IMG/VR virus record: IMGVR_UViG_3300038673_000493
Location: 26,580-90,579 of that record
Reading direction: 5' to 3' (one strand)
Source: a virus
Lineage: Duplodnaviria > Caudoviricetes
Length of the DNA stretch: 64,000 nucleotides
Shown: positions 715 to 63,236 of the stretch, piece by piece
Position numbering within the stretch: the first letter of the stretch is position 1
Layout: each line of letters starts with the position of its first letter
The notes under the pieces: model-generated
Seen by the model: only the letters and a program-made list of their open reading frames with translations
Databases searched by the model: none
Told to the model about the DNA's origin: nothing
Program-made: the position numbers and the translations under genes

Positions 715-1572
715 ATGACAACTAAACTTTTTCTTGATTCAGGAGCATATTCCGCATATCAGAATAAAACAATTGTTGATATTTATGAATACATGGATTT
801 TATCAAGAAGCATGAAAAAGAAATAACTACTTATGCAAATCTTGATTCTATAGGTTCCGCAGAAGAAACTTGGAAGAATCAGAGAATAATGGAACAACAC
901 GGATTCAATCCCATTCCTGTTTATCATTTAGATGAGGATAATAAATATCTTGATATGTGTTTGAAATATCCTTATTTTGCTGTCGGAGGATTAGCTTCTG
1001 CAAAGGGCAAATCGTTAAAACCTTTTCTGAAAAAAGTATTTGTAAAAGTATGTCCTGAAAGTAATAATTATTATCCCATCTGTAAAGTTCATGGTTTTGG
1101 AATAGCTACTCCTGAAATCATTACTTTTTTTCCCTGGTACAGTATTGATACTACTTCTTGGGTTCAATACGGACGATACGGAATTATACTTGTTCCCAGA
1201 GTAGAGTTTGGAAATATAACATACAAAAAACCACCTATGTCAGTAGCAATTTCTTCAAAATCAAAAGCTATTGGTGACATAAAACATTTTAGACATTGCC
1301 GTGAAAAAGATGAAGTAATGGAATATTGTAGGATTAAAAATTTTCCTATTGGCAAAACTTTGACAAAGAAAGTTAATCCTGGTTATGAATTAAAAGAAAA
1401 TGAATCTTGGATTGATAGAAAAACAAAAGATAAAGTACAAGTGATTATTGAAAGAGGATTGTGTTGTGATGGGGAAATGCGGGATGCTTTGAATTTACAG
1501 TATTTTTTGGATCTTGAAAAACATATTCCTAAATATCCTTGGCAATATAAACATATTCCTAGAGTTGACTGA
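715..1572 (+). CDS. dpdA: TGT-fold, DpdA-like guanine transglycosylase (candidate 7-deazaguanine DNA modification)
   Basis: LFLDSGAYS, YANLD, VHGFG and SIDTTSW motifs typical of phage TGT/DpdA-like proteins. Confidence 0.7.
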   Translation: MTTKLFLDSGAYSAYQNKTIVDIYEYMDFIKKHEKEITTYANLDSIGSAEETWKNQRIMEQHGFNPIPVYHLDEDNKYLDMCLKYPYFAVGGLASAKGKSLKPFLKKVFVKVCPESNNYYPICKVHGFGIATPEIITFFPWYSIDTTSWVQYGRYGIILVPRVEFGNITYKKPPMSVAISSKSKAIGDIKHFRHCREKDEVMEYCRIKNFPIGKTLTKKVNPGYELKENESWIDRKTKDKVQVIIERGLCCDGEMRDALNLQYFLDLEKHIPKYPWQYKHIPRVD

Positions 1573-4540: not shown

Positions 4541-7132
4541 ATGATTCCATCATTTTTTGATGATGATGATTTTATCACCACATCAACAAGCCATCTTTGT
4601 GCTGAATGCAAAAAAGATGTTCGTAGTCGATATAAAAAATTACCCGCAATAGGGGATGGTAAAGTAAGTACATTAATTGTAACGGATACTTTTTTAGACT
4701 TACCTGAATCGTCTAGTGGTAAACATATCGGAGACGGAGAAAAATGGTTTGAAAAGCAACTGAAGAAACGCAGACTTGATTTGTTTTCTGATTTTTGGAT
4801 TATCGGGACAACTCTTTGCAGATCAATTCATGATTACACCAAGCAAGATATAACATATTGTTTTCCAAACATTCTAAATTTTATCAGAGAGCATAAACCT
4901 AAGTTTGTTGTTCTATTAGGAGAAAAAGCAATCGAATCATGGTTTCAATCTCGCTTTTCAAATCTGTCAAGAGAAAGATGGAATAATGTATGCATACCTG
5001 ATTTTGAAAGAAAAGTATGGGTTATTCCTCTTTATCATCCTTCTTATGTTGTAAAAAACGAAAATAATTCCTTAATATCTTCTCAATATGAAAGAGGATT
5101 GGATTTTTTAAAAGAATGCATTATTTCAAAACATGATCTAAACACATTGAAAAGACCTAATTTCGATGATGTTATCGTAATGAAAGATTATGATCAGGTT
5201 TGTGAGGAACTTTCTTATGTAATTGAAAAACCACCTAAATGTATTTGCTTTGACTATGAAACAACTGGATTGAAACCTTACAGACAAGGACACAGAATTG
5301 CCTCTATTTCATATTGTTCCAGTTACTTTAAAGCATTTTCATTTCCTTATCAATATCCTTATTGGAAACCTTTTCAGCAAAAAAAGATCAAAGAAAAATG
5401 GAATCAAATTCTGCAAAATGATTCTTTGAAAATAGCTCATAACATAAAATTTGAAGATGTTTGGTCAAGAATCATTTTACAGACACAGCCGAATAATTGG
5501 CATTGGTGTACTATGGTCGGTGCCCATTCAATTGATAATCGTGCTAAATATTCAGGATTAAAATTTCAATCATTCTTGCATTGGGGATTGCCTAATTATG
5601 ACAAAGAAATAAAACCGTATTTAGAATCATTCGATGATACTGGATTCAATCGGGTAATGAAAGCTCCTCTAAACAAACTTCTTTTATATGGTGGAATCGA
5701 TTCTCTTATTACATTCTGGCTTTTCTTCCTTCAGAAAAAAGAAATGAATGATCACATCATGCAAGGATTTGATCTTTTTGTTGAGGGGACTTTAGCTCTA
5801 GCAGATGTTCAAATTCATGGTATAAACGCGGATACCGAATATTATCATAGAACACATACAGAATTGACAGAACGAATAAAAAAGACGGAGAAAGAGCTTT
5901 TACACTATGATGAATGTAAACAATTTGAAAAAGTTTATGGAAGATTGCCTAATTTAGGATCATCCAAAGATTTAGAAATGATGTTCTTTAAGGTTCTTAA
6001 ATTAGAACCAATAAAACTGACAAGTAGTGGCAAAACAAATGCTGTTGATGCCGATGTAATGAGTAAATTAAACACTCCTCTTGCAAAAGCTATTACCGAT
6101 CTATCACGAATTAAAAAAGTTGATGGCACTTACGTTGCTCAATTTATCAGAGAGATTGATGATGATAATCGTATTCATCCTTTCTATGATCTAACAACTG
6201 TTAAAACATATCGTGGAAGTTCTAGCGGTCCTAACTTTCAAAATATTCCTGTAAGAAATGAAGAGGCAAAAAAATATTCACGATCAGGCATTATTCCCTC
6301 ACCAGGATTTAAAATTCTTGACTTTGATTATGGAGCCATTGAAGTAAGAATGGGAGCTTGCTATACAAAAGATCCTGTATTGATTTCATATATCATGGAT
6401 CCATCAACCGATATGCATCGTGATACTGCAATTGATATTTTCTCATTGAAAAAAGCTCCCGCATCTTTTTGGAAAGACAAGAAAACAGGAAATAAATTAA
6501 GATTCTTCACAAAGAATGGATTTGTATTTCCCGAATGGTACGGATCATATTATAAAAATTGTGCTAAAAATATTTGGAGAGAATGTTCTGAAATACTGAC
6601 TCATGAAGGAATTACTGTCAGAGAGCATTTTAAACGAATTGGTAAAGCCACAGATAAAACGGTGCTTGATTATTTTATCAATCACGTTAAAAAAGTAGAA
6701 GATGCTTATTGGAAAAAATTCAAAGTATTCAAACAATGGCAAGATGCTCAATATAAATTTTATGAAGAAACTGGTTTAGTAAAACTGCTGTCTGGTTTTG
6801 AATGTAAAGGATATTTAGGCAGAAATGAAATCGTTAATTATGCTTTTCAAGGAACTGCATTTCATTGTCTGCTTTGGAGTTTGATTCAGATAAACGGAGA
6901 ATTTAAAGCAAGAGGGATGTTATCAAAAATTATCGGACAAATTCATGATTGTTGTGTAATTGATACTCATCCTAAAGAAGAAAAATTAGTTCGACAAATA
7001 GCCTCAGAGATTGCAACAAAACGTATTAAAGAACATTTTAAATGGATTATTGTTCCATTAATTATTGAATGGGAAAATACAGAAATAGATCAATGTTGGT
7101 ATTCTAAAATCGAAACGAGAGAAGAGGAGTAA
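4541..7132 (+). CDS. polA: family A DNA polymerase with N-terminal family-4 UDG-like domain and 3'-5' exonuclease
   Basis: UDG-like CxxC...CR...C and YHPSY; exo DYETTG, HNIKFE, YGGID; pol SSSGPNFQNIP, DYGAIEVR, K..F....YG, QIHD. Confidence 0.93.
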   Translation: MIPSFFDDDDFITTSTSHLCAECKKDVRSRYKKLPAIGDGKVSTLIVTDTFLDLPESSSGKHIGDGEKWFEKQLKKRRLDLFSDFWIIGTTLCRSIHDYTKQDITYCFPNILNFIREHKPKFVVLLGEKAIESWFQSRFSNLSRERWNNVCIPDFERKVWVIPLYHPSYVVKNENNSLISSQYERGLDFLKECIISKHDLNTLKRPNFDDVIVMKDYDQVCEELSYVIEKPPKCICFDYETTGLKPYRQGHRIASISYCSSYFKAFSFPYQYPYWKPFQQKKIKEKWNQILQNDSLKIAHNIKFEDVWSRIILQTQPNNWHWCTMVGAHSIDNRAKYSGLKFQSFLHWGLPNYDKEIKPYLESFDDTGFNRVMKAPLNKLLLYGGIDSLITFWLFFLQKKEMNDHIMQGFDLFVEGTLALADVQIHGINADTEYYHRTHTELTERIKKTEKELLHYDECKQFEKVYGRLPNLGSSKDLEMMFFKVLKLEPIKLTSSGKTNAVDADVMSKLNTPLAKAITDLSRIKKVDGTYVAQFIREIDDDNRIHPFYDLTTVKTYRGSSSGPNFQNIPVRNEEAKKYSRSGIIPSPGFKILDFDYGAIEVRMGACYTKDPVLISYIMDPSTDMHRDTAIDIFSLKKAPASFWKDKKTGNKLRFFTKNGFVFPEWYGSYYKNCAKNIWRECSEILTHEGITVREHFKRIGKATDKTVLDYFINHVKKVEDAYWKKFKVFKQWQDAQYKFYEETGLVKLLSGFECKGYLGRNEIVNYAFQGTAFHCLLWSLIQINGEFKARGMLSKIIGQIHDCCVIDTHPKEEKLVRQIASEIATKRIKEHFKWIIVPLIIEWENTEIDQCWYSKIETREEE

Positions 7133-54334: not shown

Positions 54335-56320
54335 TTATGTGTAACTGGCTAGATTTTTCTCTAAAATCATGGTTCCAAAGTAAGATTTCTTATGTCTTTC
54401 TTTAAAATCCGTAACATTTAGCTCTCTTCCACCATAAATACACCATGCAACCGCAAACATACTATCATCTTGAATACCATGTTTTTCAGTTTTTTCAGGA
54501 GAACCAAACCATCTTTTATCAGAATCATGGAAAAAGACACTAGCCTCTTCTCTAAACAAATCAAGTTCTTTAGTTCCAGCAACTCCTAAAGGGGGACACT
54601 TGAAACGACCATCAGAAGCTAAAATATACAATTCGCTGAATGCTCCACGTTGTTTTTCATACACAGGAAAAACTGTTTCAAAGGGAATATCATTTTCTTC
54701 ACACCAAGGAACTAAATCCCAGATACCCCACCGCTCTCCACATAGCTTATCAATGCCACCAAACTCTCTATGACATTCAAGAATGATTTCTTTTAATGTT
54801 TCCAAACTATGATCTTCCACATTAACAAAATCTAACATGAAATAAATATAGTTCGGAACAGTATTCCCTTCAGAAAGCATAAATGGACGAGAAGCACTTC
54901 CAGGCAATCCTTTTGCAATGCAGGTGAAGATTGTTCTGGCACCACGATTTGTTGCTTTTAAAGGATCTGCTCTATCGATGGCTCCTAGAACAGCCCAATT
55001 TGTATCAAACAGTTTCCCGAGCTTTTCAAGAGTCTCTAAATTAGTTCTTTTAGGTAATCCATTAGAATCTCGCAAAGAATAATAATTTTCCAAAGGCATT
55101 AATCTATCATTAATATCCCTAATTGTTGCTCTGTCTTTCTCAAGCAACGAATCCATGACACCAAATTTTACAAAGGATTTTATTCCTTCTTCAGCTTTCA
55201 TCTTGATTTCCAAAGCATCCATCAACACACTATTATTTCCTAAAGCTCTGTCAATTCCGATATAACTCATTGCTTCGAGCATTTCTGAAGTAAAAATCCT
55301 TTGAGATGAAGAACTCCACACATTCAAGAAGTATCGTTCAAAATCACCTAATGGAAATTTAGCACGATAATCATTTAATTGTGCTTGAGACATGTTGGGA
55401 TTCCAATAATCTTCGGCATTCCCTTCTTTGCTGAATCGATAATCAAAATAAATCGTTTTGCTTGTTCTGTCCATATAACTTTCAAACAGCTTATAAAGAA
55501 TATGAGACTTTGCAGAAACGGTGGAGTCAATAACGCCTATAGCATTCGGAATATTACGAATAGAACCATCAAGCTGAACAAAGAATTTCGGATTCTTCAT
55601 GTCAAAGATTTCTGAAAACGTATATCCGGTAATATTTGAAACAATACCACTAAATGATGAAATTGCACGAATGACAGAAACATCGTTTCCTCTGTCATCG
55701 GTGATTCTGATCTTCTTTTCCAATATATTTTTCTTGCCAACAGATGCTAAAAGATTCGGGCTGTTCAGAATAATATCCCGCATAATATCAAAATGAACAA
55801 AAGTTACTTGGTCTTTAGAATTAGCGCCAAGAACGATTTGCTGGCGAGACCAGTTAAAGAATTTCCACAATTGAATCAAGCAGACAAACAAAGACTTGCC
55901 TTCACCACGCGGCCAACACAAAACAACCAACCGATAAAGAAATTTGCCATCAACCATTCTTAATCCGTTTCTAGCAACTTCTTTTTGTTGTTCCCACAGA
56001 TATTTATAAGATCGTCCTGTTTCTGGATTAATTGTGTCAGGCAATTCTCCGATAGAACACCAAACAGCCATCGTAGAACCGAAAGGATAAATCGGAATAA
56101 AGACATTATCCTCGCACCATTTGATAAATCCCTCAGGTCCATCTGTATAAGATTCAGGTTCATAGATTTGATAAGGCGGCAATGAATCAGGATCCACTGC
56201 TTGAACAAGATTTTCTTTGAATAAGTCTTGGATTGTTTTCTTTTCTTCGGCTTTCTGTTTCGCTTTCAACTTTCGTTTCAGGATTTGCTTGGCTTTCTTG
56301 ATGATCGGTTTCGGTTTCAT
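54335..56320 (-). CDS. terL: terminase large subunit
   Basis: WPRGEGKS Walker A, FSEIFD Walker B, AIDRAD and QDDSMFA nuclease acids. Confidence 0.88.
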   Translation of the reverse strand: MKPKPIIKKAKQILKRKLKAKQKAEEKKTIQDLFKENLVQAVDPDSLPPYQIYEPESYTDGPEGFIKWCEDNVFIPIYPFGSTMAVWCSIGELPDTINPETGRSYKYLWEQQKEVARNGLRMVDGKFLYRLVVLCWPRGEGKSLFVCLIQLWKFFNWSRQQIVLGANSKDQVTFVHFDIMRDIILNSPNLLASVGKKNILEKKIRITDDRGNDVSVIRAISSFSGIVSNITGYTFSEIFDMKNPKFFVQLDGSIRNIPNAIGVIDSTVSAKSHILYKLFESYMDRTSKTIYFDYRFSKEGNAEDYWNPNMSQAQLNDYRAKFPLGDFERYFLNVWSSSSQRIFTSEMLEAMSYIGIDRALGNNSVLMDALEIKMKAEEGIKSFVKFGVMDSLLEKDRATIRDINDRLMPLENYYSLRDSNGLPKRTNLETLEKLGKLFDTNWAVLGAIDRADPLKATNRGARTIFTCIAKGLPGSASRPFMLSEGNTVPNYIYFMLDFVNVEDHSLETLKEIILECHREFGGIDKLCGERWGIWDLVPWCEENDIPFETVFPVYEKQRGAFSELYILASDGRFKCPPLGVAGTKELDLFREEASVFFHDSDKRWFGSPEKTEKHGIQDDSMFAVAWCIYGGRELNVTDFKERHKKSYFGTMILEKNLASYT

Positions 56321-56877
56321 CGAATCACTCCTTTACGGGATGTTCCCTCGGAACTAATCCGTTTGTAAAATTCAGGATCTCCTTTCTCAAAATCAGGAGC
56401 ATTTCCATTACCACTTTTCTTTTTTCCAGATAATTTCAGTTTTTCCCCAAATTCAAAGGATATTTCCAAGTTCTTCCACATCGAACCAATGGCTTTCATC
56501 GTTTCCCGTATCTCCCGATAAACAGGATGAATCCCAATATTCCCTTTTTCTGAAAAAACAATCGGAGTCCCCAAAGACAATTCTATGATCTGCAATCGAA
56601 TCAGATGAACATACAAAGGAACGATTTCCATTCCAATCTTAAAAAGCATCGTTTCATCTAAATAAGAATAAGTGTTCAAAATGGTATTGTACAATGTCTG
56701 GATATATTCCACTTGAACAGAACATTTTCCGTGGTGAACATACTTGCATTGATCAACAACAGGACATTCAAGATTCGTACATTCGCGGATTCCATCCCAA
56801 GCATACAAAGAAACTCCTTTTCGGACAATTCCCTTGTCTAATTCTAAATTCCCTATTTTTGTCTCGTCCAAGTTCAT
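56317..56877 (-). CDS. terminase small subunit candidate
   Basis: Immediately upstream of and coupled to terL; helical. Confidence 0.6.
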   Translation of the reverse strand: MNLDETKIGNLELDKGIVRKGVSLYAWDGIRECTNLECPVVDQCKYVHHGKCSVQVEYIQTLYNTILNTYSYLDETMLFKIGMEIVPLYVHLIRLQIIELSLGTPIVFSEKGNIGIHPVYREIRETMKAIGSMWKNLEISFEFGEKLKLSGKKKSGNGNAPDFEKGDPEFYKRISSEGTSRKGVIR

Positions 56878-57126: not shown

Positions 57127-57225
57127 AGTAGAATTGGTTCTTCAGGTTTTCAAAAAATTGGGAAAAAATTTATGGGAGTAGAATAGGTTCTGTAGGTTTT
57201 CAAAAATTGGGAAAAAATTTATGGT
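57127..57225. repeat. two tandem ~50-bp direct repeats
   Basis: AGTAGAAT.GGTTCT..AGGTTTTCAAAAA(A)TTGGGAAAAAATTTATGG at 57127 and 57177. Confidence 0.9.
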
Positions 57226-57247
57226 GAGGACCCTGCCGACTGCATAT

Positions 57248-57283
57248 AAAAAATACGTCAAGATAGAACTTGACGTACTTTTT
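57248..57283. terminator. intrinsic terminator of the GG/CC-free gene
   Basis: TACGTCAAG/CTTGACGTA stem, 6-nt loop, A6 on the left and T-run on the right. Confidence 0.8.
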
Positions 57284-57291
57284 ATTTGTGT

Positions 57292-57621
57292 TTACTGATT
57301 CAAGAGCATATTGCGTGATATAACTCTTGATTTCTCGTCATGATTAATATGACGTTTAATTCGCTTGTATGCACTAGTTACATCATTGCATAGCTTCATT
57401 GCAACAAGCTTATCAGCTATATCATTGACTTTGTACTTTAAGCGTATACATGCATCGATGCAGCTTGCTTGTGTATGTACATTGTTGAATACTGATTCAT
57501 TGAGCTTTGTCAATTTTACATTGTCTTTACAGTCTGTAATGATGCGTTTACGAATTACGTTTACATTGATGCGTTTCACTTCAATCTTCGCTTCTTTTTT
57601 GTTTTCGTTGTTAGTAGTCAT
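57292..57621 (-). CDS. basic helical (HTH-like) early protein lacking Gly, Pro and Trp
   Basis: 109 aa with its own promoter and terminator; similar to the C-terminal domain of 61258..61890. Confidence 0.75.
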   Translation of the reverse strand: MTTNNENKKEAKIEVKRINVNVIRKRIITDCKDNVKLTKLNESVFNNVHTQASCIDACIRLKYKVNDIADKLVAMKLCNDVTSAYKRIKRHINHDEKSRVISRNMLLNQ

Positions 57622-57696
57622 TGTTTTTCTCTTTTCTCTTTTTATAGTCTTTAGTGACTTGCTTAATTGTTAGTTAGTTAGTTTACTTAATTAACG

Positions 57697-57732
57697 ATGC
57701 AAGCTTAACTAAAAGAACAAAGAAGCTTGCAT
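57697..57732 (-). other. inverted repeat in the 5' UTR
   Basis: ATGCAAGCTT - 16 nt - AAGCTTGCAT. Confidence 0.6.
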
Positions 57733-57804
57733 ATACGCTTAACAGAATCATTGTTTTTGTCATTATCTTTGTTTCACTTTCATTTTTATTTTAACTTCGA
57801 TTAA

Positions 57805-57833
57805 AATCTAGCAAATCTTTTATACTTTGTCAA
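57805..57833 (-). promoter_or_regulatory. strong sigma70 promoter (leftward)
   Basis: TTGACA-17 nt-TAGATT with TGn extension and an upstream A-tract UP-like element. Confidence 0.85.
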
Positions 57834-58426
57834 GTGTTTTTTTATATTTTTTTTATATTTTTTATCACTTTTAATTATTTAATATTATTAATGTTTTTAC
57901 CTAACTATTGATTATTACTGTCTTTTTGTCTTTTAAGCAAGAGACAGCGCCGACGGCTGGATTGTTATCGCCATTACCTGGTAATGGTTCCATTCCGCCT
58001 ACCTAATATTTTCCGAAGGCACCTTCGACAATTCCGCTGACTTCTATACATCACTACTGTATATGATGCTTTATTTCGCGGTAGAATGTGGTATCCCATA
58101 ATCTTTGTTCATAAACAATAAATCATATTAATTGATCTTAAATAATGGCAAACGGCGTTTAAACAAGAAATCCTGGTTTTAAAAATAAAATAGGAAAATT
58201 GAATCGGAAAAGGGTTTCCTTCGGAAGGAAAGTTTTATTTAGAAAAAAGTTTCCTTTTCCAGGAACTTTATTGCCAGGAAAGAAAGTAATTTGAGTCCGT
58301 CCCGAGGATCGGAAATAAAGCCGAACCCAAAGCGGATAGAAAAGCCGGTCCAACGGATGGATTCAATATAGATAGAACCGCGGATTGGTTATTCGGAAAG
58401 GGCGGATCCGGGTGGAGAGGCGGTAC

Positions 58427-58484
58427 CTTTTCCCTTTCTTTCCTCTCCTATTTTCCTTTTCCCTTTCTTTCCTCTCCTATTTTC
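58427..58484. repeat. 29-bp pyrimidine-rich tandem duplication
   Basis: CTTTTCCCTTTCTTTCCTCTCCTATTTTC x2. Confidence 0.85.
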
Positions 58485-59026
58485 CTTTCCCGTTTCCTTT
58501 TAAATCACCATTTCCGCTTATACAAGAATTTCCTTTTTATAAACCCAACCAACCTACCATTCCTACCTACCTACCTTCCTTTTAAAAACATTTAAACAAT
58601 CAATTCCTTTTTAACAAGACTTTTATCTTTGATTCCTTTTTAAACAAAACTTCTTTTTTCTTTTGAAACCGATTCCTTTTATTAACTCCTTTTTATACAA
58701 TCATTCTTACATTGTTTATAGTTTTTACTTCCTTCCTTTTTCTTCTTTTATTATTGGTTTTATTATTGTTTTTGTTTCCTTTAATGGTTTTAATTTGTTT
58801 TCCTTTTATCTTCGATTTTTTGTTTCCATTGTCGATTGATTTATCCTTGGATATTATTTACCTTTGTCTTTAATTATTTGGATATTATTTATTTTCTTTT
58901 TGGATTATTTTTCGTCAGAAATTTGTGAGAAATCCTTGTGGGAAATTCTTATTTTCGGAAATTCTTTTCCTCGAACCGTTGTGGAACTGTTTATTTTGCT
59001 TCAAAAACATTTTTTTGTCTTTTTTC

Positions 59027-59055
59027 TTGACAAAACTATATGGTTTCTTTATACT
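59027..59055 (+). promoter_or_regulatory. strong sigma70 promoter (rightward, early operon)
   Basis: TTGACA-17 nt-TATACT with T-tract upstream. Confidence 0.88.
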
Positions 59056-60153: not shown

Positions 60154-60221
60154 TGCAGAGAGACAACGATGGTCAAAGATCATCGTTGGTAATGCACAGT
60201 TTCGGTCTCAAGTCCGAAATA
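60154..60221 (+). ncRNA. twister ribozyme 1 (permuted, P5-type); predicted cut 60190/60191
   Basis: GCA-GA-GAG, P1 hairpin, U|AA-UGC-AC, P4 UUUCGG/CCGAAA with loop UCUCAAGU. Confidence 0.85.
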
Positions 60222-60243
60222 CTAACTTAAAAGGAGAAAGAAA

Positions 60244-60615
60244 ATGAAAGAGAAAAAGAATCCTCGGGAAGAAATCGTTGTGGTCTTTTCTGATGAAATG
60301 CCGGATGAGGACATTCAATTATTGGCAGAAGATGTTGAAGAAACGAGCTTCATGATTTTGGAAGTTTTCGACAACGGAAACAAAGTGATTGCTGATATTC
60401 CTTCAGAAATCCCCGATCCAGACTTCAAAGGAACTCTTGAAGAATATTGGATGGATGTTCTGAATGAAACAAAATGTCCATGCTGTCATCCGATTGAAGA
60501 ATCACAAATTGCTGTTTGGGCAGTTTATCGTTTGAAAGATTTCATCAAAAAGGATAAGAAATTGAATCCCAAGATAGGCGGAGCTTACAGAGACATTTGG
60601 GAAAAGTATCTGTAG
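60244..60615 (+). CDS. early acidic hypothetical protein
   Basis: Conserved RBS; CPCCH. Confidence 0.75.
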   Translation: MKEKKNPREEIVVVFSDEMPDEDIQLLAEDVEETSFMILEVFDNGNKVIADIPSEIPDPDFKGTLEEYWMDVLNETKCPCCHPIEESQIAVWAVYRLKDFIKKDKKLNPKIGGAYRDIWEKYL

Positions 60616-60618
60616 CAT

Positions 60619-60684
60619 TGCAGAGAGGACGGAGTCAGAAATGACTTCGTTTAATGCACACTTCTGGTCTCAAGTCCAGAAAAT
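60619..60684 (+). ncRNA. twister ribozyme 2; predicted cut 60652/60653
   Basis: T2 GAG/CUC; P4 UUCUGG/CCAGAA. Confidence 0.85.
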
Positions 60685-60710
60685 AGAGAGAGAAAGAAAG
60701 GAGTAGGAAA

Positions 60711-60884
60711 ATGATTTCGGAAAAGTTTTTGCTGAAATGCTATGCGGAAACGGGGAATCGTAAATTCTTGCAGAGAGCCAAAGCAATTGCAAAATCAGAA
60801 AGGTATGCAAAAGACAAACGATTCCGAGAAATTGAAACAACAAATCGTGATGTATTCCCTTCCCTAGCTGAATGTCAAAGATAG
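60711..60884 (+). CDS. early small protein (57 aa)
   Basis: AAGGAG RBS; fills the space between ribozymes 2 and 3. Confidence 0.65.
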   Translation: MISEKFLLKCYAETGNRKFLQRAKAIAKSERYAKDKRFREIETTNRDVFPSLAECQR

Positions 60885-60886
60885 CT

Positions 60887-60953
60887 TGCAGAGGGCATGA
60901 AGTCATAAATGGCTTCATGTAATGCACAATCTCCGTCCCAAGTCGGAGAAATA
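60887..60953 (+). ncRNA. twister ribozyme 3; predicted cut 60920/60921
   Basis: T2 GGG/CCC; P4 UCUCCG/CGGAGA. Confidence 0.85.
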
Positions 60954-60978
60954 AAAATTGAAAAGGAGAAAAAAAGAA

Positions 60979-61161
60979 ATGGGAGAAAACAATTACAGCG
61001 TGGAAGTAAAAGGTAAGGAAATGATCATTCGGATAGACCTGTCACAAAATTTGGGCAGAAGTCAGTCAGGAAAAAACATTCTTGTTGCTTCTTCCAAGGG
61101 CAATCAGTTCATTGAAAAAGCCGGAGTAACACTCGGTCTCAATGTTTACAAGAAAGCCTAA
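60979..61161 (+). CDS. early small beta-rich protein (60 aa)
   Basis: IDLSQNLGRSQSGKNILVASSKGN...LGLNVY. Confidence 0.75.
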   Translation: MGENNYSVEVKGKEMIIRIDLSQNLGRSQSGKNILVASSKGNQFIEKAGVTLGLNVYKKA

Positions 61162-61163
61162 AT

Positions 61164-61230
61164 TGCAGAAGGGTCGGAGTCAGAAATGGCTCCGATTAAT
61201 GCGCCTATCAGGTCCTAAGCCCTGATAAAA
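61164..61230 (+). ncRNA. twister ribozyme 4; predicted cut 61197/61198
   Basis: Both pseudoknots covary: T2 AGG/CCU, T1 GC/GC; loop UCCUAAGC. Confidence 0.88.
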
Positions 61231-61257
61231 TCAAACGCATTAAAAGGAGAAAGAAAG

Positions 61258-61890
61258 ATGAAAAAGAATGAGAAAAACCTGGCAAAGACGACAAAGAAGG
61301 CTGATGCAAAAGCGGATGCAAAAGCGAAAATCACCTTGACGCCGAAAGCAAATGTGGCACCGGTAGCAGAGTCAAAAGGACCAGACCGTCCTGAAATGCC
61401 TGCTAATTTCTGTCTCACGAAAAAAGAGTGGGATTCGGATGCTACAGGTTTCGATGCCACAAGCAATCAGTGCAAAGCTTGCGGGAAAGATTTTCCTGAT
61501 ACTTGCAAAGTTTGCAAAACCCGTGCAGAGTTTCTGGCTTCTAAAGCGAAGGAAGCAAAAGTCAGAAAAGCTGGTGGTCTCCGCAAGACAAGTTCTACTT
61601 CCGGTATTCCCCCGCAGACAAAGATCATTGATGACGGTCTGCTGGCAAAACTGCCGAAGTCAGAAATTGTCACGAATCTAGCAATGGCTCACTATGGTGG
61701 CAATGGAGAAGCAAATATTGCTCTTGCAACAAAACGGTTTGATCGGCATCTGAAGTCGATCAAAGACGGTTCTTATGTCAGAGCGGCAACGGTCGTCAAT
61801 TGCATTGCTTATCTGTCGGCAAAAGCTGTTAAAGCAGAGCAGGCACCGGCAAAAGCATCGGCAAAGGTTACTTCTTCTAAAAAGAAGTAG
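61258..61890 (+). CDS. early basic protein: Cys cluster + HTH-like domain, Lys/Ala-rich ends
   Basis: C..CKAC..CKVC; QTKIID...EI...L...ATKRFDRHL. Confidence 0.8.
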   Translation: MKKNEKNLAKTTKKADAKADAKAKITLTPKANVAPVAESKGPDRPEMPANFCLTKKEWDSDATGFDATSNQCKACGKDFPDTCKVCKTRAEFLASKAKEAKVRKAGGLRKTSSTSGIPPQTKIIDDGLLAKLPKSEIVTNLAMAHYGGNGEANIALATKRFDRHLKSIKDGSYVRAATVVNCIAYLSAKAVKAEQAPAKASAKVTSSKKK

Positions 61891-61902
61891 CGAATGATTC
61901 AT

Positions 61903-61976
61903 TGCAGAGGGACAAGGGGTCAGAAATTCTTCTGGCTCCTTGGTAATGCACAATTTCAGTCCCAAGTCTGAAAATA
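61903..61976 (+). ncRNA. twister ribozyme 5; predicted cut 61944/61945
   Basis: 12-bp P1 with wobbles; P4 UUUCAG/CUGAAA. Confidence 0.85.
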
Positions 61977-61999
61977 AACGAGAAAAGGAGAAGGGAGTT

Positions 62000-62110
62000 A
62001 TGAAAAGGAAAGACATAAGAATCATAAGAAAAGCAATTGAATGGGCTTTGAGAGCATTAGTTATTGGCATTCTTGTGGGAATCGTTTATATGATTGTAAC
62101 AATCCCGTAA
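62000..62110 (+). CDS. early small membrane protein (36 aa)
   Basis: MKRKDIRIIRKAIEWALRALVIGILVGIVYMIVTIP*. Confidence 0.65.
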   Translation: MKRKDIRIIRKAIEWALRALVIGILVGIVYMIVTIP

Positions 62111-62111
62111 T

Positions 62112-62173
62112 TGCAGAGGGAGCGGAGTCAAAAACTCCGCTTAATGCACAATCACCGTCCCAAGTCGGTGAAG
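62112..62173 (+). ncRNA. twister ribozyme 6; predicted cut 62142/62143
   Basis: P1 GCGGAGU/ACUCCGC; P4 UCACCG/CGGUGA. Confidence 0.85.
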
Positions 62174-62190
62174 AAAGGAGAAAGAAAGAA

Positions 62191-62496
62191 ATGAACTACC
62201 AAGAAGTGAGGAAAAAAGCGAAAGAGTTCAAAGAAGTATCCAAAGAATTGGATGATCGTTTAATAAAAATTGCCAATATGACATGGCAAACAATTGCTGG
62301 AGATGTTTTTGATTGTATCGGCAAAGATACAATGAAAAGATCCGAAGTTATTGAATGCGTAGGGGATGCGGACTACATGTTCACACATGGAAACGATCCT
62401 GAAGCTTATGCTTATTTTCTTTACCTGTTCCATAACAATGAAAAACATCTTCAGAAAGTTATGAAACAGGCTTTTCCGTATGCAAAATATTGTTAG
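62191..62496 (+). CDS. early hypothetical protein (101 aa)
   Basis: Conserved RBS before ATG 62191. Confidence 0.75.
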   Translation: MNYQEVRKKAKEFKEVSKELDDRLIKIANMTWQTIAGDVFDCIGKDTMKRSEVIECVGDADYMFTHGNDPEAYAYFLYLFHNNEKHLQKVMKQAFPYAKYC

Positions 62497-62557
62497 CAGA
62501 GGGGGCGGAGCTTCTGCTCCGTCTAATGCACACTTGCCGTCCCAAGTCGGCAAAATA
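62496..62557 (+). ncRNA. twister ribozyme 7; predicted cut 62524/62525
   Basis: P1 GGCGGAGC/GCUCCGUC; P4 UUGCCG/CGGCAA; starts at the G of the UAG stop. Confidence 0.85.
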
Positions 62558-62582
62558 GAGAGAGAAAGAAAGGAGAAAGAAA

Positions 62583-62759
62583 ATGCCAACAGAACAATTA
62601 TTGCTGCCGAAAGAAGATCCTAAAGAAGTCTTTTTTTACAAACATGGAGATATTGCTGTTATGAATCCAGCAACTCCGGGAGTTCCTGTTCGAGCTTTCT
62701 TCATTACAAGAAATGATCTAAATGGGTTATGGGGCATATTTATTGGACAAACAAGATAG
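62583..62759 (+). CDS. early small protein (58 aa)
   Basis: Conserved RBS; MPTEQLLLPKEDPKEVFFYKHG...GQTR*. Confidence 0.65.
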   Translation: MPTEQLLLPKEDPKEVFFYKHGDIAVMNPATPGVPVRAFFITRNDLNGLWGIFIGQTR

Positions 62760-62821
62760 CAGAGGGGACGGAGCTAAAAACTCCGTCTAATGCACAATCA
62801 CCGTCCCAAGTCGGTGAAATA
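62759..62821 (+). ncRNA. twister ribozyme 8; predicted cut 62788/62789
   Basis: P1 GACGGAG/CUCCGUC; P4 UCACCG/CGGUGA. Confidence 0.85.
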
Positions 62822-62844
62822 AAAGAGAAAAGGAGAAAAAGAAA

Positions 62845-63159
62845 ATGAGCAAGCGACAGGAAGAAATTCAGGAAGCCCTTCGGTTAGAGGCAGAAAAAAA
62901 ATTGGCGATAGAGCTGGTTGAAAAACTGGCTAATTATGTGAACATAATGGGCAGAGATTATGCTCCATTTATCGAAAGACTTATTTACGGAACCCATCGA
63001 ACATTGCAACAATCTGTTTTTGGACTGTTTTTACAATGCATTAAAGGTTTTGCTGAATTACCAGAAAGATATACTGATCCTCGTAATGAAGCAACCGTTG
63101 AAGTTTGTAAGAAAATCATGGAAGCAGTGGAAGGCAGAACGAGACTTCCTTTGATTTAG
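62845..63159 (+). CDS. early hypothetical protein
   Basis: HRTLQQ...RNEA motifs; conserved RBS. Confidence 0.75.
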   Translation: MSKRQEEIQEALRLEAEKKLAIELVEKLANYVNIMGRDYAPFIERLIYGTHRTLQQSVFGLFLQCIKGFAELPERYTDPRNEATVEVCKKIMEAVEGRTRLPLI

Positions 63160-63174
63160 CGTTCAGAAAAATTT

Positions 63175-63236
63175 TGCAGAGAGGTCGGAGCAATAGCTCC
63201 GATTAATGCACAATCCCAGTCTCAAGTCTGGGAAAT
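63175..63236 (+). ncRNA. twister ribozyme 9; predicted cut 63204/63205
   Basis: T2 GAG/CUC; P1 UCGGAGC/GCUCCGA; P4 UCCCAG/CUGGGA. Confidence 0.85.

What the first reader, a model, noticed from the sequence alone, without database searches (positions are those of the whole stretch)
57237..57900. A complete transcription unit with zero GG or CC dinucleotides over 664 bp
Seen: between CC at 57236-37 and CC at 57900-01 there is no GG or CC (my hand estimate is roughly 20-25 expected from base composition), although both are common elsewhere in the window. The island covers the promoter, the UTR, a 109-aa ORF with no Gly, Pro or Trp, and a terminator whose stem avoids GG/CC. Its RBS reads AAGAGAAAAGAGAAAAACAATG, a GG-less version of the AAGAGAAAAGGAGAAA leader of other early genes. 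Inference: this lies just upstream of terS, so it may be the genome end injected first. Hypothesis (a): virion DNA is modified at GG, for example by the DpdA-like enzyme, and the first host-transcribed gene must be modification-free. Hypothesis (b): it is a PAM/recognition-site-free zone (NGG for type II, CC for type I-F) encoding an anti-defence protein.
Basis: partly seen in the sequence, partly recalled or inferred. Interest (0 to 1): 0.9.

Follow-up and report, generated by a model that had tools for sequence, protein, structure and literature searches.

The report
GG/CC-free early regulator cassette in phage
An uncultured 90-kb phage and its whole clade keep one small promoter-to-terminator gene unit free of the DNA steps GG and CC, so its protein has no glycine, proline or tryptophan. 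Something in the infected cell must therefore read that two-letter step, and the leading suspect is the phage's own guanine-modifying enzyme.

Summary
Window 57238-57899 has no GG or CC, where about 27 are expected. The gap is 664 bp; the next longest in the 90.6-kb genome is 121 bp.

It is selected, not chance. Seven complete or near-complete relatives each carry exactly one such island (0.66-1.4 kb, 46-97 GG/CC expected). About 20 shorter contigs carry one too, always 1-3.5 kb upstream of terL. No other dinucleotide behaves this way.

The island is one sigma70-type unit: promoter, 5' UTR with a split Shine-Dalgarno (AAG-N-GAG), a 109-aa basic helical HTH-like protein under purifying selection (dN/dS 0.09), and a GG-free terminator. 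About 48 of 59 family representatives lack Gly, Pro and Trp completely.

All island phages encode DpdA and preQ0 synthesis. The N6/N4 methylase is found only in this genome. Six other DpdA phages and CAjan have no island, so DpdA alone does not bring an island.

Best reading (0.35): the cassette is a blind spot for a GG-directed 7-deazaguanine modification. The main rival (0.25) is a PAM- or site-free leading end.

No description was found in the papers searched. This scan has noted the same phenomenon on other DNA.

The parts
57238..57899 (.). GG/CC-free island (662 bp, 28.4% G+C)
   Evidence: 0 observed against 26.7 expected. It is the longest GG/CC gap in the genome by a factor of 5.5.
57805..57833 (-). 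sigma70-type promoter TTGACA-17-TAGATT with an extended -10 TG. An A/T-rich UP-like stretch (57834-57899) lies upstream.
   Evidence: 10 of 12 matches. Comparable promoters precede the ORF in several relatives, for example L020, L039 and L036. Activity was not tested.
57622..57798 (-). 5' UTR of about 175 nt, ending in the GG-less leader AAGAGAAAAGAGAAAAACA (57622-57640)
   Evidence: Most island genes of relatives use AAG-N-GAG (N = A, T or C) in place of AAGGAG. The transcription start is inferred from the -10 element.
57292..57621 (-). 109-aa basic (pI 9.8), all-helical, HTH-like protein with no Gly, Pro or Trp
   Evidence: dN/dS is 0.09 against L041. AF2 pLDDT is 86.7. The family has 59 representatives at 50% identity.
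57246..57277 (-). Intrinsic terminator: 9-bp stem without GG/CC, 6-nt loop, T run
   Evidence: inverted repeat I1. The island ends 9 nt beyond the T run.
57127..57226 (-). Two tandem 50-bp repeats with the motif CCATAAATTTTTTCCCAATTTTT. They lie just outside the island, between it and terS, and could be a pac site or an operator.
   Evidence: the motif is unique in the window. The same motif follows the island in L041, L006 and L017. Function is inferred.
54335..56877 (-). terS (56877-56317) and terL (56320-54335), the head of the late/structural arm downstream of the island
   Evidence: (terL matches phrog_9 and phrog_2).
59027..59055 (+). Divergent early promoter TTGACA-17-TATACT. It heads the twister-punctuated early operon, which has normal GG/CC content.
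715..1572 (+). DpdA-like DNA guanine transglycosylase, the candidate GG-reading enzyme. FolE, QueD, QueE and QueC lie just upstream, outside the window.
   Evidence: (phrog_887, 8e-43).

Best explanation
The island is a self-contained early gene cassette, run by host RNA polymerase, for a small HTH-type DNA-binding regulator. Selection keeps it free of GG on both strands so that it is invisible to a process that acts on double-stranded DNA at the GG/CC step.

The most likely process is the clade's own DpdA-dependent exchange of guanine for a 7-deazaguanine base, if that DpdA lineage targets GG. On this reading the cassette stays ordinary, unmodified DNA while 20-45% of all other guanines are replaced. 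Its expression would then not depend on the modification state of the template. It could also not be nicked or blocked by host enzymes that attack deazaguanine DNA.

Shown here: the ban, its conservation and strength, the anatomy of the unit, and the co-occurrence with DpdA.

Inferred: that DpdA targets GG, that the cassette is expressed first, and what the protein regulates.
For: 1. The ban is strand-symmetric. It covers the promoter, UTR, coding sequence in all three frames and usually the terminator. It holds whichever strand the gene is on. This points to double-stranded DNA rather than to codons.

2. Each GG/CC must be costly.
- 17.8% of random substitutions would create one.
- None of the 112 differences between the window and L041 did, which has a probability of about 3e-10.
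- The SD is split into AAG-N-GAG.
- About 48 of 59 family representatives have no G, P or W, while distant homologues elsewhere have normal amounts.

3. There is exactly one island per genome in seven complete or near-complete genomes of 34-44% G+C, with 46-97 GG/CC expected in the gap. No other dinucleotide class exceeds 17, apart from one CG-free stretch and one AA/TT gap in G013.

4. DpdA, FolE, QueD and QueE are present in all seven. QueC is detected in five. The N6/N4 methylase is present only in G000.

5. In the DpdA tree, the island phages sit on one side. The island-less DpdA phages sit on the other, together with CAjan, whose motif is GA/GGC. Support for the split is 86/91.

6. Phage DpdAs are known to have 2-3-nt motifs that are modified at about 97% of sites (PMC10484667).

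7. Host glycosylases that destroy deazaguanine DNA exist (bioRxiv 10.1101/2025.10.29.685425).

8. In the island clade, 6-bp palindromes that contain GG/CC are less avoided than the others (median O/E 0.82 against 0.62, p = 0.02). The 15 most avoided palindromes all lack GG/CC. The island-less DpdA phages show no such difference.
Against: - The motif of this DpdA is unknown, and nothing here measures modification.
- Six other phages of 69-100 kb with a related DpdA, and CAjan, have no dinucleotide-free island. DpdA therefore does not by itself call for a blind spot.
- Co-occurrence inside one clade may be plain co-inheritance.
- GGCC and CCGG are the most depleted 4-bp palindromes (O/E 0.41-0.75). 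That is unexpected if GG sites were protected.
- The early operon has an equally strong sigma70 promoter and normal GG content. Modified GG therefore cannot simply block host RNA polymerase.
- No accessory modification gene tracks the island.
- Earlier, unchecked notes of this scan report GG/CC-free cassettes in phage-plasmids and T4-like phages where no DpdA is mentioned.
Confidence: 0.35

Rival explanations
1. The island is a target-free leading end, independent of modification. It is the first DNA to enter the cell. It carries no GG/CC so that host immunity that needs that step cannot bind, cut or take spacers from it before its product is made. Candidate systems are type I-F (CC PAM), type II-A (NGG PAM) and the many restriction enzymes with GG/CC in their sites. 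The logic is that of the T5 first-step-transfer region and the T7-like leading region.
For: - The island lies between a conserved tandem repeat next to terS (a possible pac or cos site) and the early promoter. That promoter points away from it, a T7-like geometry.
- T5 is cut by EcoRI and CRISPR only in its first-entering DNA (bioRxiv 10.1101/866236).
- T7-like phages escape type I restriction when the motif is absent from the leading region (PMC12455610).
- The island is an old, exchanged allele between 99%-identical flanks, as is usual for anti-defence and immunity loci.
- Some longer islands add a small acidic ORF next to the HTH gene, an acr-aca-like layout (L035).
Against: - The genome ends are unknown: assemblies are circular and reads could not be examined.
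- A cut anywhere else would still kill the phage unless DNA entry is stepwise.
- One PAM gives only one possible protospacer, so selection per site should be too weak for a perfect ban over 0.6-1.4 kb across a clade spanning 34-44% G+C.
- Restriction sites without GG/CC are frequent inside the island, for example AAGCTT, ATCGAT and GCATGC.
- In this genome the cassette encodes only a basic HTH-like protein.
Confidence: 0.25
2. The island is a terminal segment that cannot be modified. It is, or lies in, a terminal repeat or a stretch synthesised at packaging. DpdA has no time to modify it, so the phage falls back on removing every site that would otherwise need protection.
For: - The edge is sharp: identity to L041 falls from 99% to 74-86% at about 57,940.
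- A size of 0.6-1.4 kb is within the range of direct terminal repeats.
- The island is next to the packaging genes.
- The ban does not depend on gene orientation.
- GG/CC-containing 6-mers are not avoided elsewhere in the genome.
Against: - There is no evidence for terminal repeats. The 55-bp end overlap is an assembly overlap.
- The island is single-copy and internal in all long contigs.
- This reading also needs GG to be the DpdA motif.
Confidence: 0.1
3. The constraint is on the RNA. The mRNA, and an antisense transcript, must lack GG and CC to escape an RNA-level reader. Candidates are a GG-specific endoribonuclease (RegB-like), CsrA-type GGA binding, or pairing with the anti-SD sequence or the leader's anti-SD-like tract.
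For: - In this genome the ban matches the transcription unit closely, from -67 of the promoter to 9 nt past the terminator.
- The SD itself is rewritten without GG.
- The phage makes heavy use of RNA devices, with nine twister ribozymes in the early operon.
Against: - Both GG and CC are banned, which an RNA reader of one strand does not explain.
- The ban extends 67-290 nt upstream of the promoter in several relatives.
- In L014 the terminator stem contains GG.
- The ban is the same whichever strand is coding.
Confidence: 0.07
4. The island is due to chance, low G+C, or a recent insertion from a donor poor in GG/CC.
For: The island is A+T-rich (28% G+C), and a 6-bp word occurs near both edges.
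Against: - 0 of 20,000 shuffles had fewer than 11 GG/CC.
- The island is conserved at the same locus in more than 20 diverged relatives, including genomes of 42-44% G+C.
- 112 substitutions created no GG/CC.
- The flanking word occurs 9 times in the window.
Confidence: 0.01

Closest known systems
First-step-transfer (pre-early) region of phage T5/BF23
   Same: A short, first-expressed block with its own host-type promoters that is naturally free of a nuclease's sites. Sites or CRISPR targets are effective only if they lie in that block (bioRxiv 10.1101/866236). A repeat-rich non-coding stretch lies beside it, as here at 58,390-58,965.
   Different: T5 lacks particular 6-bp sites, not a dinucleotide, and its proteins have normal composition. 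Two-step DNA entry and fixed ends are demonstrated for T5 but unknown here. No A1/A2 homologues were found.
Motif-free leading region of T7-like phages (Autographiviridae; Murciavirus and type I restriction)
   Same: What matters for escape is the absence of the defence motif from the early-injected region, not from the whole genome. Such regions are variable and carry anti-defence genes (PMC12455610).
   Different: The avoided word there is a long bipartite type I motif set by one host system. Here it is a 2-nt step kept out by a whole clade, at the cost of three amino acids and the canonical SD.
Motif-specific 7-deazaguanine modification by phage DpdA (iggy: GA; CAjan: GA and GGC)
   Same: The same enzyme family and preQ0 pathway are present. 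Known DpdAs read 2-3-nt motifs and modify nearly every site. A GG motif would replace 20-26% of G if one G of each GG step is exchanged. That is the range measured in known phages.
   Different: No motif-free zone has been described for those phages, and CAjan has none. The motif of this clade's DpdA is unknown.
Anti-CRISPR operons with an HTH Aca autorepressor (from my own knowledge)
   Same: A strong early promoter, very small genes, an HTH protein in the unit and high allelic turnover.
   Different: In this genome the unit holds only the HTH-like gene. Known acr loci are not reported to lack PAM dinucleotides. No Acr or Aca family match was found.
Genome-wide restriction-site avoidance in phages
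   Same: Selection removes short words that a nuclease reads. This clade does so strongly for AGATCT, GAGCTC, CTCGAG and GTCGAC.
   Different: That avoidance is genome-wide, statistical and concerns 4-6-bp palindromes. Here the ban is local, absolute and on a dinucleotide that is slightly over-represented in the rest of the genome (O/E 1.01-1.25).

Membership tests
Site-free first-entering DNA (T5 FST / T7 leading region) | The segment is physically the first DNA to enter the cell (fixed genome end nearby, stepwise entry) | not testable with these tools
Only the gene map fits.
Site-free first-entering DNA (T5 FST / T7 leading region) | The segment lacks the recognition word of a defined host defence that is present elsewhere in the genome | tested here: inconclusive
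   GG/CC is absent from the island and normal elsewhere, but no defence that reads GG/CC has been identified and the host is unknown.
Site-free first-entering DNA (T5 FST / T7 leading region) | It encodes a pre-early function that protects or admits the rest of the genome | not tested
   The product is a basic HTH-like protein of unknown role.
DpdA / 7-deazaguanine DNA modification system | A TGT-fold DpdA plus FolE, QueD, QueE and QueC encoded by the phage | tested here: met
   DpdA, FolE, QueD and QueE are in all seven island genomes; QueC is detected in five.
DpdA / 7-deazaguanine DNA modification system | Virion DNA carries a 7-deazaguanine base in a short motif, and that motif is GG | not testable with these tools
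   This needs LC-MS and nanopore or SMRT data. The indirect palindrome statistics are mixed.
Helix-turn-helix transcription regulators | A recognisable HTH or winged-helix fold, or a family profile match | tested here: inconclusive
   There is no Pfam or PHROG hit. The AF2 model is confident (pLDDT 86.7), but the best matches are weak: winged-helix and DnaA domain IV at Z 4.2-4.7. HTH-like motifs are visible by eye in G010 and in the A5 alignment, with a Trans_reg_C hit at E = 0.06.
Anti-CRISPR (acr-aca) locus | A small acr gene or genes followed by an HTH aca gene under one strong early promoter | tested here: not met
   In this window the unit holds one gene only. A second small acidic ORF exists only in some relatives.

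The most novel reading that the evidence does not exclude
This phage clade's DpdA targets the GG step. The phages have written one immediate-early regulator cassette entirely without GG/CC, down to the amino-acid alphabet and the ribosome-binding site, so that it stays canonical DNA inside a hypermodified genome. That would be a built-in, modification-free safe zone. It would also allow the target motif of a DNA-modifying enzyme to be read directly from genome sequence.
Probability: 0.35. Interest if true: 0.9.

Novelty: new variant of a known kind. Interest (0 to 1): 0.8.

Why it matters
A dinucleotide ban strong enough to remove three amino acids and the canonical ribosome-binding site from a conserved gene shows that a GG/CC-reading factor acts on phage DNA. 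No paper in the library searched describes one.

If the factor is the phage's own DpdA:
- The motif of a hypermodifying enzyme could be predicted from sequence alone.
- Phages would be shown to need an unmodified foothold, a weak point that host defences or phage engineering could exploit.

If the factor is host immunity, the island marks the first-entering DNA and a new way of hiding it.

In either case the cassettes give a simple sequence signature for finding immediate-early regulators or anti-defence genes in uncultured phages. They also give natural examples of functional proteins built without Gly, Pro or Trp.

Tried and rejected
- **Cultured relatives.** No cultured phage resembles the region or TerL (blastn and tblastn against 50,697 phage records).
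- **Family searches for ORF109.** Pfam, PHROGs and the ESM Atlas gave nothing. Foldseek against the PDB gave no match with E <= 0.001.
- **Genome ends.** I did not try another route.
- **Breaking the DpdA/island co-occurrence.**
  - The seven family homologues with normal G/P/W content lie on contigs of 0.9-7 kb. Their alignment was too divergent for a locus scan.
  - G005, a relative with DpdA, lacks the region upstream of terS because the contig ends there.
- **DNA methylase as the GG/CC reader.** Rejected: it is absent from G001-G005, G010 and G013.
- **Accessory enzymes as a correlate.** The second radical SAM enzyme, HAD and HD are rejected. They are absent from island genomes G004, G010 and G013, and partly present in island-less G006.
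- **Motif-free islands as a general DpdA trait.** Rejected for single dinucleotides in CAjan and six other DpdA phages. Scans for 3-mers and 4-mers only picked up compositional oddities.
- **SSU5.** There is no strict GG/CC-free island in the first 100 kb, only a stretch with fewer GG/CC near 95.4-96.7 kb.
- **Codon or tRNA explanation** (anticodon nucleases for Gly, Pro or Trp). Rejected, because non-coding parts and out-of-frame GG/CC are equally absent.
- **The protein avoids its own binding site.** Rejected, because proteins of 16-89% identity, and a second apparently unrelated family, obey the same ban.
- **Zinc binding by the Cys/His motif.** Rejected, because the cysteines are not conserved.
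- **Homology of the two island protein families.** Not shown (hhalign probability 1.5%).
- **Spacing of opposed GG/CC pairs.** Depletion at short distance also occurs in CAjan and is confounded by strand bias.
- **Contexts of the few tolerated GG/CC in relatives.** No common pattern.
Full report
**Observation**

Window 57238-57899 contains no GG and no CC.
- From its own base composition (28.4% G+C), 26.7 are expected. In 20,000 shuffles the minimum was 11.
- The window is part of a single 90,579-bp contig with a 55-bp end overlap, which indicates a circular assembly.
- In that genome the 664-bp gap is 5.5 times the next longest GG/CC gap. No other strand-symmetric dinucleotide class shows anything similar.
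- GC and CG steps are enriched (1.95x and 1.28x). G and C are therefore kept, but never doubled.

**Anatomy**

The island is one minus-strand transcription unit:
- an A/T-rich stretch upstream of the promoter;
- a sigma70-type promoter, TTGACA-17-TAGATT, with an extended -10 TG (57833-57805);
- a UTR of about 175 nt that ends in AAGAGAAAAGAGAAAAACA followed by ATG;
- a 109-aa ORF (57621-57292);
- an intrinsic terminator whose 9-bp stem has no GG/CC (57277-57254, then a T run).

The island ends 9 nt past the T run and begins 67 nt upstream of the -35 element.

Downstream, in order, come:
- two tandem 50-bp repeats with a motif that is unique in the window;
- terS and terL, followed by the structural genes.

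Upstream lie about 1.1 kb without ORFs. Then comes a divergent TTGACA-17-TATACT promoter for the early operon. Its genes are separated by nine twister-P5 ribozymes.

**Conservation**

- Scans of IMG/VR with the ORF, TerS and a TerL alignment gave about 50 related loci.
- Nearly every locus with at least 2.4 kb upstream of terL and TerL identity of 54% or more has a GG/CC-free island, either whole or interrupted once or twice. L042 (59%) and the 58% relatives do not (see below). Examples:

| Locus | Island length (bp) |
|---|---|
| L036 | 1,146 |
| L055 | 1,114 |
| L039 | 1,056 |
| L020 | 1,024 |
| L037 | 1,017 |
| L027 | 798 |
| L033 | 781 |
| L041 | 709 |
| L054 | 688 |

- I read seven complete or near-complete genomes in full: G000-G004, G010 and G013 (34-44% G+C). 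Each has exactly one island. At genome-wide density, 46-97 GG/CC would be expected in the gap.
- In the first five genomes no other dinucleotide class exceeds 17.
- Relatives with TerL identity of 58% (L043, L044) show only a 264-bp repeat-rich intergenic gap.
- Relatives with TerL near 50%, and L042 (59%), show none, or a similar short gap (265 bp in L051), within the 0.6-2.5 kb available upstream.

**Strength of selection**

- 17.8% of random substitutions in the island would create a GG or CC. The window and L041 differ at 112 island positions and none did, a probability of about 3e-10.
- Between these two phages the island is 74-86% identical, while the DNA directly upstream, beyond about 57,940, is 99% identical. 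Downstream, identity climbs back gradually, reaching 99% within terS.
- The ORF has dS 0.84 and dN/dS 0.09. It is therefore an old, exchanged allele of a protein under purifying selection.
- Ribosome-binding sites inside most islands read AAG-N-GAG, which is AAGGAG with a base put between the two Gs.
- A profile search of 1.84 billion representative proteins found 59 family members. About 48 have no Gly, Pro or Trp, and several have a single one.
- A few distant homologues have normal amounts: P0043, P0050, P0060, P0062, P0065, P0066 and P0067. The fold therefore does not require the reduced alphabet.
- In a second subclade (L035-L039, L055, G010) the island holds a 143-180-aa ORF on the opposite strand. 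It also lacks G, P and W. Similarity to the first family is not significant.
- Some islands hold two or three small genes.

**The protein**

- It is basic (pI 9.8; 23 Lys+Arg against 12 Asp+Glu).
- AlphaFold2 with 13 homologues gives a confident seven-helix model (pLDDT 86.7).
- Structure searches give only weak matches (Z <= 4.7), mostly winged-helix and DnaA domain IV DNA-binding domains aligned to residues 40-109.
- Relatives show HTH-like motifs, for example in G010.
- I read it as a small DNA-binding regulator, with moderate confidence. The cysteines are not conserved.

**What reads GG/CC?**

The ban has these properties:
- it is strand-symmetric;
- it includes non-coding DNA;
- it ignores reading frame and gene orientation.

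These properties argue for a constraint on double-stranded DNA, not on codons or on a single RNA.

Two DNA-modifying enzymes are encoded in this genome.
- **The N6/N4 methylase.** Its best solved relatives include cytosine-N4 methyltransferases. It is absent from the other island genomes, so it is not the cause.
- **The DpdA transglycosylase.** DpdA, FolE, QueD and QueE are present in all seven island genomes; QueC is detected in five.

Published work shows two relevant things:
- Phage DpdAs act on 2-3-nt motifs at about 97% of sites: GA in iggy, GA and GGC in CAjan (PMC10484667).
- Bacterial glycosylases degrade deazaguanine DNA.

A GG motif would replace 20-26% of guanines.

Indirect support:
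- In the island clade, 6-bp palindromes with GG/CC are less avoided than the rest (median O/E 0.82 against 0.62, p = 0.02).
- The 15 most avoided palindromes all lack GG/CC. Over G000-G004, AGATCT occurs 8 times against 118 expected, and GAGCTC 2 against 50.
- Island-less DpdA phages show no such contrast.
- In a DpdA tree the island phages form one side. The island-less phages form the other, together with CAjan. Support is 86/91.

**Limits of the DpdA reading**

- Six other phages of 69-100 kb with a related DpdA but an unrelated TerL, and CAjan, have no dinucleotide-free island.
- GGCC and CCGG are the most depleted 4-bp palindromes in the clade.
- The early operon has an equally good host-type promoter and normal GG content.
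- No accessory modification gene tracks the island.
- Inside one clade, co-occurrence may simply be shared descent.
- The reading therefore stays an inference. I give it 0.35.

**Rivals**

- **Target-free leading end (0.25).** The gene map fits the logic of T5 and T7-like phages. There, only sites in the first-entering DNA matter. Here the island abuts a conserved repeat next to terS, and the early promoter points away from it. CRISPR systems with CC or NGG PAMs, or GG/CC-cutting restriction enzymes, could be the readers. Against this, the genome ends are unknown. Selection per PAM should also be weak. Restriction sites without GG/CC are common in the island, and the product looks like a regulator.
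- **Unmodifiable terminal repeat (0.1).**
- **RNA-level reader (0.07).**
- **Chance or foreign insertion.** This is refuted.

**Literature and earlier notes**

- Searches of the paper library found no description of a dinucleotide-free transcription unit in a phage.
- Earlier notes of this scan, which are unchecked AI notes, report the same kind of GG/CC-free cassette in other genomes. These include relatives of this clade, phage-plasmids and T4-like phages, plus one unit that bans GA, GG, TC and CC.
- I tested two of their leads. Other DpdA phages showed no island. SSU5 showed only a local dip in GG/CC.

**Verdict**

The finding is of high interest because a simple, absolute sequence rule points to a reader of GG/CC on phage DNA that nobody has described.

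Noticed in passing
window 60154-63231 (+): Nine Rfam Twister-P5 ribozymes (44-54 bits; gathering threshold 37.6) sit between consecutive genes of the early operon.
   Followed up: partly
window 57901-58390: An ORF-free segment abutting the island is 99% identical to L041, while the island itself is only 74-86% identical. It has a sigma70-like promoter on the minus strand (58151-58122). Its 215-nt minus-strand RNA folds better than shuffles (z = -2.8). It may be a small RNA or a cis element.
   Followed up: partly
window 58390-58965: A variable, repeat-rich non-coding stretch (two exact 29-nt pyrimidine-rich repeats at 58426-58483, plus others) lies between the conserved segment and the early promoter. 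It resembles the repeat-rich injection-stop region of T5 in position only.
   Followed up: no
window 57127-57226: Two tandem 50-bp repeats carry the motif CCATAAATTTTTTCCCAATTTTT. The motif is unique in the window and conserved after the island in L041, L006 and L017. They may be a pac site or an operator.
   Followed up: partly
whole genomes G000-G004, G010, G013: Several 6-bp palindromes are almost eliminated: AGATCT 8 against 118 expected, GAGCTC 2 against 50, CTCGAG 1 against 18, GTCGAC 4 against 34 (counts over G000-G004). This implies strong restriction pressure that the DNA modification does not cover.
   Followed up: partly
window 4541-7132 (+): The family A DNA polymerase carries an N-terminal uracil-DNA-glycosylase-superfamily domain (Pfam UDG, 1.6e-8).
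   Followed up: no
L009:3348-5060 and L008:15947-18697 (genome 21348-23060 and 15947-18697): There are inteins in QueE (radical SAM) and in the DnaB-like helicase, the latter with LAGLIDADG. An HNH/ROS-MucR-like N-terminal part is fused to QueD.
   Followed up: no
L004/L014 (L004:5233-5853, minus strand): In this relative a 206-aa metallophosphatase-like gene is inserted between the island and terS, so the island need not touch terS.
   Followed up: no
L087:3094-5385: A distant homologue of the island protein with normal Gly/Pro/Trp content (P0065, 75 aa) lies directly after a 610-aa GmrSD_N-domain gene and before a ROS/MucR-type gene.
   Followed up: no
G013 (L192:13528-15622, i.e. genome 33528-35622): A 2,094-bp stretch without CG, followed by another of 798 bp, lies in a genome where CG occurs about every 45 bp. 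It is unrelated to the GG/CC island.
   Followed up: no
L025:1002-1005: In this relative the only GG in an 840-bp GG/CC-free region is the GGGG of the gene's own Shine-Dalgarno sequence.
   Followed up: no
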